Assembly: GCA_051362555.1 (NCBI GenBank) | Contig: CM120641.1 | Location: 38,384,401-38,448,400 of the forward strand | Origin: Lingula anatina | Taxonomy: Eukaryota; Animalia; Brachiopoda | Length of the DNA stretch: 64,000 nt | Direction of reading: 5' to 3' | The notes under the pieces: generated by a model | What the model saw: only the letters and a program-made list of their open reading frames with translations | Told to the model about the DNA's origin: nothing | Databases searched by the model: none | Shown here: piece by piece, positions 1-53,407 of the stretch | How positions within the stretch are numbered: position 1 is the stretch's first letter | How the letters are laid out: each line of letters starts with the position of its first letter | Position numbers and translations under genes: made by a program

Positions 1-823
1 GAGTCATAAGTATGTGAACTGTCTTAAGGCTAGATAGAAAACTGAGCTTAATCTCTGCCTGTTGATTCAGAAGGTGACCTTGTTCCCAGGTTCAAAGAAT
101 CCCATTATTATTACAATTTGGTGAGGACAATAGGAAAGAATGTCTCTCTGACCCTTAGGTTACATGAAACAGAACTGTGCGGGGTTTTTAATCTTTTTCA
201 TATTTTGTCCAATATTTAGGATTCAAGCATGGAAGTCAAGAAGATGAAAAATTTGCAAAACAAGTGAATAAGATTTGATAGAGAAAGTGGATTCCTAATG
301 ATAATTGGTGAGTGGTATTTTCATATGTTGATTATGATATTTTTTTAATGACCTTTGTAATGTATTATTTAAAATTAACAGAAAAATTGTAGCCCTTAGT
401 GGAAGGGATGGCAATGCATTTTTTATGCTTTGGATTTTAATATTTACTTTTTGTTAAATATGTTTATTACAGCTGTTGTGAAAAATGAAATAAATAAAAG
501 ATAAATTTGTTGTGCATCCAGTGAGATTTACAAAAGTAATATCAATTTGTTAGAAGTATTTAATAATTAAAGAAATATGAGTACAAACATATATTTAATA
601 ACAGGCGTTCCAAACAAAACTTTAAAAAACATATACTTTAGAAATACGAGACATCATAAAAATTGAATTAATACCTAATGAATGTTTTAATGGAAAGAAA
701 ATAGTAATTGGAAAATTTCAGAAAAGGGAAGTGTGGTACCAAAAATATATATATATGTCCATTCTAAGTAATGGTATCCCCTCATATTGAAAACCAGTAA
801 AATTCTCATGATAGCTTTGAGGC

Positions 824-879
824 ATATATATATATATATATATATATATATATATATATATATATATATATATATATAT
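824..879. repeat. (AT)28 microsatellite
   Basis: Direct reading; source of the YIYIYI ORF. Confidence 0.95.
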
Positions 880-2313
880 GTTTCAGTATCACAACATTGC
901 AAGATCATTTTTGTGTTTGAATAATTTGATCTATCTGAAAGGTTGCCCCATAGCAGGTTAATTCAAGTTTATCCAGGCATAGTTCACCAATATAATCCCT
1001 GAGCACATAAGTTGGAAGTGGTCATGGCTAAATATAATGGACTTCCAAAGATTTCCTAGAGTACTGTTAACATGGTACCCACACATTCAGTGTAATCCTG
1101 GTAAAAATGGTACAATTTTTTAGGTTACATATGTTGTCTCCTTCATAGGACACCTCCTCGCCTTCCCCACCCACCACACATCTTATCAATAGTACACCAA
1201 TCTATAACTACAAAATACACAGTGTATTGCTCACGTTCATCAAGTTACTTTAAGTCAGGAGTGCGGTCACTGTAAAGATTATCCTTAAGTGTGTTTGTTT
1301 CCATCACTGTAAAAAAAATGACTTTGTGGTTGACCAAATATTGTAGTTATTGTAGCAATTAAAGGTCACTAACATTACGTACTAAAAAACCTGGGTAAGT
1401 ATTCACTTAAGTTGAGGGGGAGTGTTATTGATGAAGAAATGACAATAAGAGTGTAAAAAAGTAAAACAGTCTGATAGCATATCAAATCACCCACTTGGAT
1501 TTTTTTCTGTACTGAACATACTTAACAGTTAAAATATAATTTCATTCATACTTATTTAATTTCACTCATACATATTGAAATTATAATGACATTAGGAATG
1601 ATGTTGAATATTCATGACCTTATCTGAAAGACACTTAACAGTTGATAAATGTTGATGTATGTATGGCTAAATATTGCCCAATTCCACAGAGCAGAAACTC
1701 ATAGCTTGATGTCAATAGCATTTTTTATTAATTCTACTTCTAGGTGTTGATTTAATCATTACTTTGCTTGCTTTCCTCATCACTAATGGGAAGTTATTTT
1801 GGTTTATTTTTTTCTCCTTCAAACACATGATATTCAGTCTGATAATCATGTTAAGGAAATTTAACTTTCAATTTTGTAGACAAACTTTTTGAAAACGTTA
1901 CTTCCATCAGAATGTAATATTGATAAGTATTAAGTTGATAAGTAAATTAATTATTCTTCACACATCTCTCTAAGCCCTTCAGAAACTAAATAAGTTCAGA
2001 AATGGTCATGAACTAATATTCTTATATTGGCGCTTGGTTTAACCAGTGATCTCCTGTCAGGAAAGGGTCATCTCTTTATTGCCTAAATTTCCAATGGACA
2101 GAAAATGTAAGTCCTCTTTTCATACAGAAATCTATCCTTAATATGTGGTCCTCATTTCACACACGTATCTGTCCCTAATTTGTGGTTAGAAAAGTCCTAT
2201 TATACACACCTTTGTGGTCACAAAGAAGGTGTAAAACCTTTCAGTATTTGACCACAAACTTTGCCACAAATACTGACTTCATGTATAGAGTGTCTGTCTG
2301 TTAACCACTGAGG

Positions 2314-50570: not shown

Positions 50571-50633
50571 CTGGTTTTCACAATGATTTGCCAGATATTT
50601 TTAGAAATTCTGAGATCATTGTGAAAACTGATT
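50571..50633 (+). ncRNA. bantam: bantam pre-miRNA; mature 3p 50611-50633 UGAGAUCAUUGUGAAAACUGAUU; 5p/star arm ~50571-50595 CUGGUUUUCACAAUGAUUUGCCAGA
   Basis: The 3p arm matches the bantam family (seed GAGAUC; Drosophila UGAGAUCAUUUUGAAAGCUGAUU differs at 2 positions). ggttttcacaatgat pairs with atcattgtgaaaact and caga with tctg around a ~13-nt loop. Arm ends give a 2-nt 3' overhang. CNNC motif (CATC 50649-50652) starts 16 nt past the 3' end. Confidence 0.96.
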
Positions 50634-53407
50634 TTGTTCCCTATGTAACATCTTTGACCACGATGACCACAGCCCAGGAGGAACCGTTTGACCACTGTTG
50701 GAGCCATCACCACAACATCTTAACTGGTGCATCTGTGCCAGTTTAAATAAAAACATACTGAGATGATCAGAAAAAAGTCAAGCAACAGTTACTTGGTGCA
50801 TGATTGTTTTTGGATTATAGAGAAATAAAGACAAAATCAAAAGAATCTAGGTGGAACTTGAGTTTTTCACCCACCTGACTGAGAGCATGTTTAGGAAAAA
50901 GATTCCTTACTAAATGGATCCCAGTAGGCAGCATCAGATATGCAGTTTTTATGTTTGTTTTATTTGAAGGCAGGGAAGATATGAAAAACAAACACTTTGT
51001 CACATTGAATGAGATTGGAGCAGAGAATTTAACCTGGCCTCGTAGGCCTTCAATTAAATAAGCAGTCAATTAGTTAATTAACCTGATGTGATCCAGTGCA
51101 AGTTAATGATGAGAATGAGTGCAAATAACTGGGGTTCCAGAAAGAGCACCCAGCTAATCACACAGATCTTTAGTCTATGACAGGCCACATATTTATCAAT
51201 ATTTGAGTTTGTTTTGTGCCATACTTGATAATGCAGGCCCAGCAGATCAATGGCCAAGACAAGACCCACTTTGCTGAGGAATGGCATTAAATAAGATGGG
51301 TATGACCACATTTATATTGTATATATGTATATATATATATATGTATAGTTTATATTCTAGTAAAACTGTATCTGTCTGTGTAAATAATTTGTTTTGGGTT
51401 TTTGTACCAATTATTATCCAATTATTTAATGTTTAATATCCAAGAAAGAGACAATCAAAATATTTTTGAAATTCGAAAATGGTTATGAGTATTCGAAGGG
51501 GTCCCAAAGTCTTGATGTTCTTTTTTGGTGCACAGATATTTGGAATTAACCACATAAGCAAAAATGTGTTGTTCTACCATCAGATAGACATGGATATGAA
51601 ACTGTCTTTCAGTGGTAGTAACCATACAAATACATTAGGCAACCGACTTGAGGTCTATGAACAGAGAATTGAGGACAGGACATCTATACCAGAAAGGGGA
51701 AACCACCACCATGCATTTTCAATGTAAGGAATCATATTTGGTCATAAACAAGAGAAAATGTTGGTGGATTCAGTGTCAAATTTGACTGTCATAATTATTT
51801 TTGTTGTTCTTCCAAACTTTCATAGATTTAATTTTGTATTTTTACAAGAAAAACATATGACAATTGGTCCTGCAATGACCAAATGTTTCCCTACCCATTA
51901 AAGGAATTAAAGGAAGGAGCATATGTTGCAAATTATATCTGTGTTCCATCTTTTATACCAGTGGTTTAAGAGTTTAATTTCTTGCTCCATATGTTGTATA
52001 ATTTTGTCAGTTTTGGGGTTTGAGTCTGCAGTCAAAGAAGAAAAATAAAAAGGTGACTTTAAGAGTTAATTCTGGACCTTGAAGTTGACTTTAACCTTGA
52101 AAGCAATTAGAGTTTTAGGACAGACTGGGATTTTGGCTAGTTTTCTGGTGTTAAATAATTGATTATGAAAGTTTTAATAATTTAAATATAAAACTGACCT
52201 CAAATCCTTCTCATTTGTTAACGTTATTTATAACTGATAACTTCCCGAATCTGTCATCTCCCAGTTTAAAGTATATATTCGTCTCTTTGAACCCTACTTT
52301 TTATCCAAAATTCCTAGACCTTATTAGACCTAAAGGCATTCGAAAAGTTCAGAAATGTAACTTCATTTATTTTTTAAGCAAGATTAGCTTACATTTGTTT
52401 TGTAACACTGTTGTCAAATAAAAGAAACTGCAAATATTGTTACTACTGTTTAAACTTCCTGCAGGAATGTCTTAGTTCGTTCAAATTATTATAAAGACAA
52501 CACGAACAAATCAAAATGTCCGGGAGGATGAACCATTTATAGTACCAACACATATCTGAGATTGCATTTTCACCGTTTCTCCACTGTAGGGGTTGGATTT
52601 TTACATTATGATTTTACACATGGTGCGTTCATCTTTCATCTGCAGAGTTAATAAAAAAAACATTCACTGTGAAAAAATCAGAATATTTGATCCAAGGTTA
52701 CGTTGTAACTTGGCCGTATCTGAAGTCGCCCCTCTTTAAAATAAAGTAAAAGAAAGTAAACAAAACGTATCAGATTATGTTCTTAAAACGAAACGGAAGC
52801 ACAAATACGAATCTAAAAACGGCAATTGGCTGTTAAATATGAATGAAAACCCAATAATTTTTTATTTCTGCGTTCAGTATCAGATGGCGACGGGAGTGTT
52901 TTTTAGCTCGTCAACGATACCTATCAGTAGGCCAAAACCGGGGATCATAAGATAGCGTTCTGCCACGTTAGATCGTACCTCCTTCTTAACTTGCCACTTG
53001 AAGACAAATTTAGGGGCTTATTTGCTTTCCATATTGACTGATAGTCAGCTAATATTTGTTCAAAAGAAGGATAGGACGTCTGACCCAGCGAAGTCCGAGG
53101 TATTCGCTCTGGCAATTTACCAAATTTAATCGTCCAGTTGATAGTATTAGTGTAGCTATCTCGCAAAGGATCTTCCTGTCAGGGGGGTGCATCGAGAAAT
53201 TAAGGGGTTTTTTTACGAAGGTAGATGGACACAAAACATGGAAGTACGCCGATTTAGATCTATTTTGATTGTTAATGGTTTTACACTCATACATTCGGCG
53301 AGAAAAATTGTTAGGCCTATTGTGATAGAATGTACTAAAATAAAAACACAACTTTTTTGTTCTTTCTTTTTTTAATGAAAGGCTAAACTTAACAAAATGT
53401 CTAACTG

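What the first reader, a model, noticed from the sequence alone, without database searches (positions are those of the whole stretch)
220..50770. Apparent >50 kb spliced non-coding host gene (pri-bantam) converging on SoxE
Seen: several short segments have a polypyrimidine-AG acceptor and a GT donor on the + strand: 220-307 ending GTGAGT (all three frames closed); 15112-15295 ending GTATGT; 28041-28104 ending GTACGT with an overlapping GTAAGT; 43609-43657 ending AAG|GTATGT; 50226-50407. The acceptor ttttgtttttccag at 50527 lies 44 nt before the bantam hairpin, and AATAAA follows at 50746. Known: Drosophila bantam is processed from a long primary transcript in a large locus without coding genes. 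Inference: these are exons of a lophotrochozoan pri-bantam lncRNA with the hairpin in its terminal exon. Some candidate exons will be chance matches.
Basis: partly seen in the sequence, partly recalled or inferred. Interest (0 to 1): 0.7.

Follow-up and report, generated by a model that had tools for sequence, protein, structure and literature searches.

The report
Brachiopod bantam microRNA beside SoxE
This brachiopod DNA carries the growth microRNA bantam near the end of what is likely a very long non-coding transcript; the few RNA reads around the hairpin are unspliced, so the proposed exon chain is unproven, but bantam also sits next to a SoxE gene in two other animals, a pairing that is likely ancient.

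Summary
Partly confirmed. The bantam hairpin (Rfam, 50557-50640, +) and a convergent SoxE gene are real; the SoxE is 99% identical to Lingula anatina SOX-9. A long + strand unit is likely: 1-52.5 kb is one CpG-depleted block (o/e 0.24 against 0.93 beyond) with no CpG-rich promoter, G>C skew in 23 of 25 blocks and no Pfam-grade ORF. About 15 stranded RNA fragments between 45 and 53 kb all read +. The exon model is not supported where it could be tested: no joint was seen, one read pair and two relative's contigs cross acceptor 50527 unspliced, 50226-50405 has no raw reads, and RNA runs about 2 kb past AATAAA 50746. Of the upstream candidates only 28041-28104 and 43552/43609-43657 score well, and 1-40.7 kb was never laid. 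Depth was very low, so splicing is not refuted. The new lead is synteny: in 2 of 4 other animals with this bantam sequence, SoxE starts 2.1-2.6 kb downstream on the same strand; the other 2 contigs are short. My searches found no paper on the pairing. A long pri-bantam is expected from Drosophila.

The parts
1..52471 (+). CpG-depleted, G>C and T>A skewed block; inferred body of the bantam host transcription unit, start inferred to lie upstream of the window
   Evidence: CpG o/e 0.24, TpG/CpA 1.31; change point 52471 (support 52198-52693); G>C in 23 of 25 and T>A in 19 of 25 unmasked 2-kb blocks; no CpG-rich island except the repeat at 39.5-42 kb
50571..50633 (+). bantam pre-miRNA (5' arm from 50571, mature 3' arm 50611-50633; cut sites inferred); CNNC motif CATC at 50649-50652
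   Evidence: Rfam RF00727 50557-50640, E 8e-14; fold -30.0 kcal/mol with flanks and CNNC at +16; mature 23-mer identical to Platynereis Bantam-2 (PMC12257675 supplement)
48501..50650 (+). 5' flank of the hairpin, seen as unspliced sequence
   Evidence: X2 contigs 48501-48729, 49567-49702, 49856-49958, 50014-50218, 50224-50469, 50472-50650; X8 pairs at about 49.8-50.13 kb and across 50504-50556; X1 contig 50424-50641
50634..52750 (+). 3' flank, transcribed past AATAAA 50746 and 50824; candidate poly(A) signals 52044, 52417, 52650, 52740
   Evidence: X6 depth 1.56, 0.86, 0.41 in bins 50660-52651, first mate on - only; X3 one pair in 52652-53315; X7 and X8 reads at 50.6-51.7 kb; signals listed
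28041..28104 (+). best-scoring candidate exon, untested
   Evidence: rank 1 of 171; two frames open; no reads laid here
43552..43657 (+). candidate exon with acceptors at 43552 (stronger) and 43609
   Evidence: rank 2 and 34 of 171; depth 0 in its bin in 3 of 3 raw runs
50226..50407 (+). candidate exon: fair acceptor, poor donor; not supported as an internal exon
   Evidence: acceptor 4.8, donor -0.7; 0 raw reads in bin 50226-50405; an X2 contig runs 62 nt through the donor
220..307 (+). weak candidate exon, untested
   Evidence: rank 81 of 171
15112..15295 (+). weak candidate exon, GC-rich, untested
   Evidence: rank 115 of 171; GC 0.48
53889..54037 (.). conserved non-coding stretch in the CpG-rich gap between the two 3' ends; candidate enhancer or boundary
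   Evidence: X1 contig from a related species, 3 differences in 149 nt
54900..62791 (-). SoxE gene: CDS 62791-62412, 58672-58311, 57910-57225 (475 aa); 3' UTR inferred to end near 54.9-55.1 kb
   Evidence: Sox_N and HMG_box; 98-99% to Lingula anatina SOX-9 over the first and last exons; splice sites; reads down to bin 54644-55307; minus-strand AATAAA at 55099, 55078, 54917
39500..42000 (.). multi-copy repeat element with a 159-bp tandem array inside the unit
   Evidence: TRF 40067-40619; internal repeats; thousands of 90-95% alike reads

Best explanation
The bantam hairpin sits near the 3' end of a + strand transcript that is likely one long (over 50 kb), non-coding unit starting upstream of the window; the RNA seen around the hairpin is unspliced and runs to about 52.6 kb, roughly 2 kb short of the predicted end of the oppositely transcribed SoxE gene. 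Inferred mechanism: a distant promoter drives steady polymerase II transcription that attracts germline gene-body methylation, which would leave the CpG depletion and the skew. Microprocessor would crop the hairpin from the nascent, locally unspliced RNA (CNNC at +16), leaving an unpolyadenylated 5' piece and a short-lived 3' piece that ends at one of several poly(A) signals near 52.0-52.7 kb. One or two upstream exons (28041-28104, 43552/43609-43657) may be real, but they would be by-products. Shown: hairpin, SoxE, strand of the RNA at 45-53 kb, unspliced reads at 50.4-50.65 kb, the CpG step, and SoxE beside bantam in L003 and L005. Inferred: unit length, promoter position, methylation itself, Drosha cropping, non-coding status.
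For: Rfam hit. CpG o/e 0.24 over 1-52.4 kb against 0.93 beyond, step at 52471, coinciding with the end of the RNA reads. Promoters are hypomethylated and methylation concentrates in gene bodies in annelids (PMC11292947 passages), and no CpG-rich island lies in 1-52 kb outside the repeat. G>C skew in 23 of 25 blocks. About 15 fragments in 4 stranded runs from 2 studies (X3, X6, X7, X8; estimated from depth) all have the first mate on -, while SoxE reads in X3 and X6 lie the other way, which fixes the convention. No family reaches its Pfam cut-off in 158 of 170 + ORFs of 48 aa or more and 111 of 112 - ORFs of 56 aa or more. Drosophila bantam comes from a 12 kb primary transcript in a 40 kb locus (PMC3764184 passage). 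L007, from another animal, shows the same CpG step next to its bantam (0.25 to 0.92).
Against: No RNA was laid on 1-40.7 kb; upstream of 48.5 kb the only stranded evidence is one pair at 45.3-46.0 kb. The same annelid paper reports gene bodies only 1.1-1.2-fold more methylated than intergenic DNA, so the CpG step could be just the edge of an unmethylated zone around SoxE, and the genome background could not be measured because no genome is held. T>A skew also appears on + at 58-64 kb, inside the minus-strand SoxE. X4 gave 0 reads on 48066-53285. X1 and X2 are only guessed to be RNA. In L007 the step lies about 850 nt upstream of the mature sequence, not downstream. Short coding exons would escape the Pfam scan.
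Confidence: 0.55

Rival explanations
1. The host is a protein-coding or micropeptide gene with giant introns and short exons; bantam lies in its 3' UTR (last exon starting at 50226) or in its last intron.
For: Gene-body methylation typically marks steadily expressed genes. Segments 5748-5832, 28041-28104, 43609-43657 and the start of 50226 keep one frame for 89 codons. One X2 contig starts at 50224, on the AG of that acceptor, with 2 unaligned letters.
Against: The chain was picked from thousands of subsets of 14 candidates. The 50-aa ORF holding 5748-5832 found no real homolog among 1.84 billion representatives; its single hit is 31% identical to a protein with 12 copies of one repeat. No exon or 3' UTR in 43-53 kb has mRNA-like depth in 6 raw runs. 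X2 depth is the same on both sides of 50226 (3-5x).
Confidence: 0.18
2. Pri-bantam is short, with its own promoter a few kb upstream of 48.5 kb; the CpG-poor 50 kb is ordinary methylated background or the body of a separate upstream gene.
For: RNA evidence is continuous only from 48.5 kb. Intergenic DNA is nearly as methylated as gene bodies in two annelids. The Drosophila transcript covers only 12 of 40 kb.
Against: No CpG-rich promoter-like island in 1-52 kb. The skew persists across the block. One + strand pair lies at 45.3-46.0 kb.
Confidence: 0.17
3. One reading: six exons, last intron 50408-50527, hairpin in a 240-nt terminal exon ending at AATAAA 50746.
For: The acceptor at 50527 scores well (6.6). 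28041-28104 is the best candidate in the window. The 810-nt product has no ATG ORF over 46 codons. Unspliced reads could be precursors.
Against: 0 spliced observations against 3 unspliced at 50527 (one X8 pair, one X1 contig, one X2 contig) and 1 unspliced at 50407; donor 50407 is poor; reads extend about 2 kb beyond 50746; two of the exons rank mid-table among candidates of both strands.
Confidence: 0.1

Closest known systems
Drosophila bantam locus (PMC3764184, passages read)
   Same: Same microRNA family; hairpin made from a long primary transcript in a large locus (12 kb transcript, 40 kb locus).
   Different: Here the unit is inferred to exceed 50 kb and carries a CpG-depletion signature; the neighbour is SoxE. 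That fly bantam and Sox100B lie on different arms is recalled, not checked.
Lophotrochozoan bantam, e.g. Platynereis Bantam-2 (PMC12257675 supplements 2-4)
   Same: Identical 23-nt mature sequence and a very similar 5' arm; family origin given as Protostomia.
   Different: Platynereis has two tandem copies; one is found in this window. The supplements give no neighbouring genes (0 hits for soxE, sox8, sox9, sox10).
Long microRNA host lncRNAs (MIR100HG type) and microRNAs tied to developmental transcription factors (miR-10 in Hox clusters); both recalled
   Same: A long non-coding unit whose main product is a hairpin; conserved physical linkage to a developmental regulator.
   Different: Splicing of this host is not shown; orientation to SoxE differs between animals (tail-to-tail here, tandem in L003 and L005).
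Invertebrate mosaic methylation (PMC11292947, passages read)
   Same: CpG-depleted block next to a CpG-rich developmental gene.
   Different: Here the depleted block would be a non-coding microRNA host; methylation is inferred from sequence, not measured.

Membership tests
bantam microRNA (RF00727) | covariance-model score above the gathering threshold | tested here: met
   74.7 bits against 61
bantam microRNA (RF00727) | mature 3' arm matches a sequenced bantam | tested here: met
   identical to Pdu-Bantam-2, 18,670 mature reads in that supplement
bantam microRNA (RF00727) | small-RNA reads with precise ends from this locus | not testable with these tools
   no small-RNA run was listed
SoxE group (Sox8/9/10) | Sox_N dimerisation region before an HMG box | tested here: met
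   window, L003 and L005 all pass the Pfam cut-offs for PF12444 and PF00505
spliced pri-miRNA host lncRNA | transcribed on the hairpin strand on both sides of the hairpin | tested here: met
   stranded reads upstream (X8, X3) and downstream (X3, X6, X7, X8)
spliced pri-miRNA host lncRNA | splice junctions between the proposed exons | tested here: inconclusive
spliced pri-miRNA host lncRNA | last intron 50408-50527 removed and end at 50746 | tested here: not met
   all 3 observations across 50527 are unspliced; reads reach about 52.6 kb
spliced pri-miRNA host lncRNA | no conserved protein product | tested here: inconclusive
   no Pfam cut-off reached; one ORF searched against 1.84 billion proteins, no true hit; exons under 30 codons are beyond these tests
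spliced pri-miRNA host lncRNA | single unit over 50 kb from a distal promoter | tested here: inconclusive
   compositional support only
conserved microsynteny / genomic regulatory block | same two genes adjacent in distant lineages | tested here: met
   window, L003 and L005 share only the hairpin and SoxE coding sequence (73-82% nucleotide identity in the SoxE blocks); phylum of L003 and L005 not resolved
conserved microsynteny / genomic regulatory block | shared enhancers or co-expression | not testable with these tools
   needs chromatin or expression data

The most novel reading that the evidence does not exclude
bantam and SoxE form an ancient lophotrochozoan (perhaps protostome) regulatory block kept together through an inversion: a huge, steadily transcribed, methylated microRNA host abuts the unmethylated SoxE domain, and the two share or are insulated by elements in the gap such as 53889-54037. 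In the tandem arrangement of L003 and L005 bantam could even be co-transcribed with SoxE. This would tie a protostome growth microRNA to the gonad and skeletal regulator SoxE.
Probability: 0.3. Interest if true: 0.68.

Novelty: new member of a known kind. Interest (0 to 1): 0.42.

Why it matters
A long pri-bantam is expected from Drosophila, so the finding as written is modest. What adds value is the linkage to SoxE in three deeply diverged animals, for which my searches found no paper, and a sharp CpG step that predicts where the host transcript ends. Both can be checked at once in public chromosome-level lophotrochozoan genomes. If the linkage is general, it gives a place to look for shared growth and gonad enhancers and a marker for the ancestral position of bantam.

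Tried and rejected
No whole genome is held, so the upstream promoter, the genome-wide CpG background and repeat copy numbers were not examined. The look-up of sequencing runs listed no holder on record as RNA: no RNA holder listed, not evidence. I laid 8 of the 11 listed runs (X1-X4, X6-X9); only about 6-25% of each raw run was read. One search was swamped by the repeat at 40.7-42 kb. I spent the second lay on 48066-53465 and not on the upstream exons. Idea that the host is a known neighbour of vertebrate SoxE genes (SLC39A11, LMF1; recalled): no such Pfam hit. 18 of 150 ORFs had weak hits at E up to 0.1, all under cut-off; the best (Hexapep, 1.4e-4) is the 18-bp tandem repeat. tblastx of window 1-56 kb against the 8 loci gave nothing outside the hairpin. 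37 of 53 listed L007 ORFs and 13 of 20 L008 ORFs gave no Pfam hit. P0132 was rejected as a repeat artefact. Depletion of AATAAA on + was rejected as base skew. Placing L003 and L005 by SoxE similarity failed: best scores were spread over molluscs, beetles and a lizard. The five-hairpin alignment shows 0 of 20 pairs with double-sided change, as expected when all rows were selected for an identical 3' arm. L001-L003, L005, L006 and L008 miss Rfam's gathering score (L004 not scanned) but L002, L003, L005 and L008 match the bantam clan at E 5e-6 to 9e-10. Earlier-findings look-ups near this place, on CpG words and by sequence were empty. My first guess of a bivalve was wrong.
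Full report
Identity of the locus. The only Rfam match in the window is bantam at 50557-50640 on + (74.7 bits). The mature arm is 50611-50633 and is identical to Platynereis Bantam-2, whose star arm begins like the window's at 50571 (PMC12257675, supplement rows). The hairpin folds at -30.0 kcal/mol with flanks and has a CNNC motif 16 nt after the inferred 3' cut (the motif's role is recalled). 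The gene at the right end is SoxE on - (Sox_N plus HMG). Its first exon is 99% identical to 'SOX-9 [Lingula anatina]' and the three exons give the 475 aa of that protein. The window is therefore from the brachiopod Lingula or a very close relative. The SoxE stop lies 6592 nt from the hairpin.

The named exons. All are in the sequence as described. As a class they are close to background: 76 pairs on + against 67 on -, or 101 against 70 by a wider definition, using matrices that I wrote from general knowledge. 28041-28104 ranks 1st of 171 candidates from both strands and 43552-43657 2nd; 220-307 and 15112-15295 rank 81st and 115th; the donor at 50407 fails the threshold.

Composition points to one long unit. 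CpG observed/expected is 0.24 over 1-52.4 kb with TpG/CpA at 1.31, then 0.93 from 52.5 kb on; the best change point is 52471. The only CpG-richer stretch over 1 kb inside is a repeat at 39.5-42 kb; single 500-nt windows reach 0.5-0.6 at 13.5 and 49 kb. G exceeds C in 23 of 25 and T exceeds A in 19 of 25 unmasked 2-kb blocks. In annelids methylation concentrates in gene bodies and promoters are hypomethylated (PMC11292947, passages), so this reads as a transcribed body with no promoter in the window. Against this, the same passages put gene bodies only 1.1-1.2-fold above intergenic DNA, T>A skew on + also occurs inside SoxE, and I could not measure the genome background. The step may mark the edge of an unmethylated SoxE zone as much as the end of the host.

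RNA reads. Eleven runs were listed and 8 were laid on 40700-60600 or 48066-53465. The raw runs match the window closely outside repeats (7 of the 13 X7 and X8 reads at 99% or more); X1 and X2 are contigs of a relative at about 87-98% and are only guessed to be RNA. SoxE reads in X3 and X6 have the first mate on +, so first mate on - means + strand RNA. Outside repeats, about 15 fragments in X3, X6, X7 and X8 (estimated from depth) lie between 45.3 and 53.3 kb, all + strand; X4 has none on 48066-53285, and unstranded X9 has a few. Most lie downstream of the hairpin and reach about 52.6 kb, past AATAAA 50746 and up to the CpG step. No joint is listed. In one search the joint table is cut and filled by the repeat, but the bins holding 43609-43657 and 50226-50407 have depth 0-0.01 in the raw runs. 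One X8 pair covers 50504-50556 with no unlaid part, so it crosses acceptor 50527 unspliced; contigs X1 50424-50641 and X2 50472-50650 do the same, and X2 50224-50469 runs through donor 50407. Two X8 pairs lie in the predicted intron at 49.8-50.13 kb and none in 50226-50405. One weak hint the other way: the X2 contig starts on the AG of acceptor 50225. Depth is about 1x, precursors are unspliced by nature, and poly(A) selection would lose the 5' Drosha fragment, so this counts against the proposed last intron without excluding upstream splicing. SoxE reads reach bin 54644-55307, where minus-strand AATAAA signals lie at 55099-54917, so the two units converge but probably do not overlap.

Coding potential. 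No Pfam family reaches its cut-off in 158 of 170 + strand ORFs of 48 aa or more, or in 111 of 112 - strand ORFs of 56 aa or more. Four good candidates can be chained in one frame for 89 codons, but that chain was selected from thousands, and the one piece long enough to search found only a repeat artefact among 1.84 billion proteins. A small coding host stays possible.

Related loci. A scan of metagenome contigs for the mature 23-mer gave 8 loci that fall into 4 sequence groups: L001/L004/L006/L008, L002/L005, L003 and L007. SoxE lies downstream on the same strand in 2 of the 4: the likely start codon is about 2.6 kb from the mature sequence in L003 and 2.1 kb in L005, and both pass Sox_N and HMG cut-offs. 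In the first group the contigs end 0.5-1.9 kb downstream, and L007 has no SoxE in 5 kb downstream or 10 kb upstream; with 6.6 kb in the window, neither case excludes linkage. L003, L005 and the window share only the hairpin and SoxE coding blocks, so they are deeply diverged, but I could not place L003 and L005 in a phylum, and their similar 5' arms suggest that they may be one lineage. Chance adjacency within 10 kb in a genome of hundreds of Mb is of order 1e-4 per case (my estimate). L007 shows a CpG step like the window's, 0.25 to 0.92, about 850 nt upstream of the mature sequence.

Literature. Drosophila bantam derives from a 12 kb primary transcript in a 40 kb locus (PMC3764184, passages). 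Pri-miRNAs are short-lived (PMC6066331, passages). Searches for bantam with SoxE and for bantam, synteny, Sox9 and microRNA gave 0 papers; Lingula with bantam gave 2 irrelevant ones; none of the 40 listed of 3,729 mentions bantam; listings showed no title on the pairing. The Lingula genome paper PMC13121700 has no main-text occurrence of SoxE, Sox9, miRNA, lncRNA or methylation (supplements not searched). PMC6067505 and PMC8915122 (passages) added nothing. The library omits most subscription papers, and database annotations such as RefSeq or MirGeneDB could not be consulted, so the host gene or the linkage may already be on record there.

Verdict. A real bantam gene in a likely long, non-coding + strand unit that ends near 52.5 kb, tail-to-tail with SoxE. 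The exon chain is unproven and its last intron and end are contradicted by the few reads available. The kind of system is known. The bantam-SoxE linkage is the part worth following.

Noticed in passing
L003:2002-2576 (-) and L005:6743-8023 (-): SoxE genes begin 2.1-2.6 kb downstream of bantam on the same strand in two other animals; the L005 gene has an extra intron between the dimerisation region and the HMG box.
   Followed up: partly
window 62791 and beyond (outside the window): A second Lingula SoxE ('Sox-10', P0113) has the next accession number and the same longest-contig length as the window's SoxE, which suggests a tandem SoxE pair.
   Followed up: no
window about 57178-57184 (-): One 7-mer bantam seed site lies about 40 nt after the SoxE stop codon; about 0.13 expected by chance in this UTR by my estimate, and none was found in 1.5 kb after the L003 and L005 stops.
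   Followed up: partly
window 53889-54037: Non-coding stretch 98% identical in a related species, more conserved than most laid pieces of the SoxE 3' UTR.
   Followed up: no
window 39500-42000: Abundant non-autonomous repeat with a 159-bp tandem array and a GTCGCC microsatellite; its copies are strongly strand-biased in stranded RNA runs (about 20:1).
   Followed up: no
window 21451-21970: Degenerate 18-bp tandem array with open frames on both strands and a weak Hexapep match below cut-off.
   Followed up: partly
   Followed up: partly
L007:9021-9270: CpG step from 0.25 to 0.92 just upstream of another animal's bantam; its hairpin is 85% identical to the window's.
   Followed up: partly
P0132: Unnamed 2141-aa protein made mostly of about 12 copies of a 135-aa repeat with D-P-F motifs that resemble TACC-family repeats (recalled); unrelated to this locus.
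   Followed up: no
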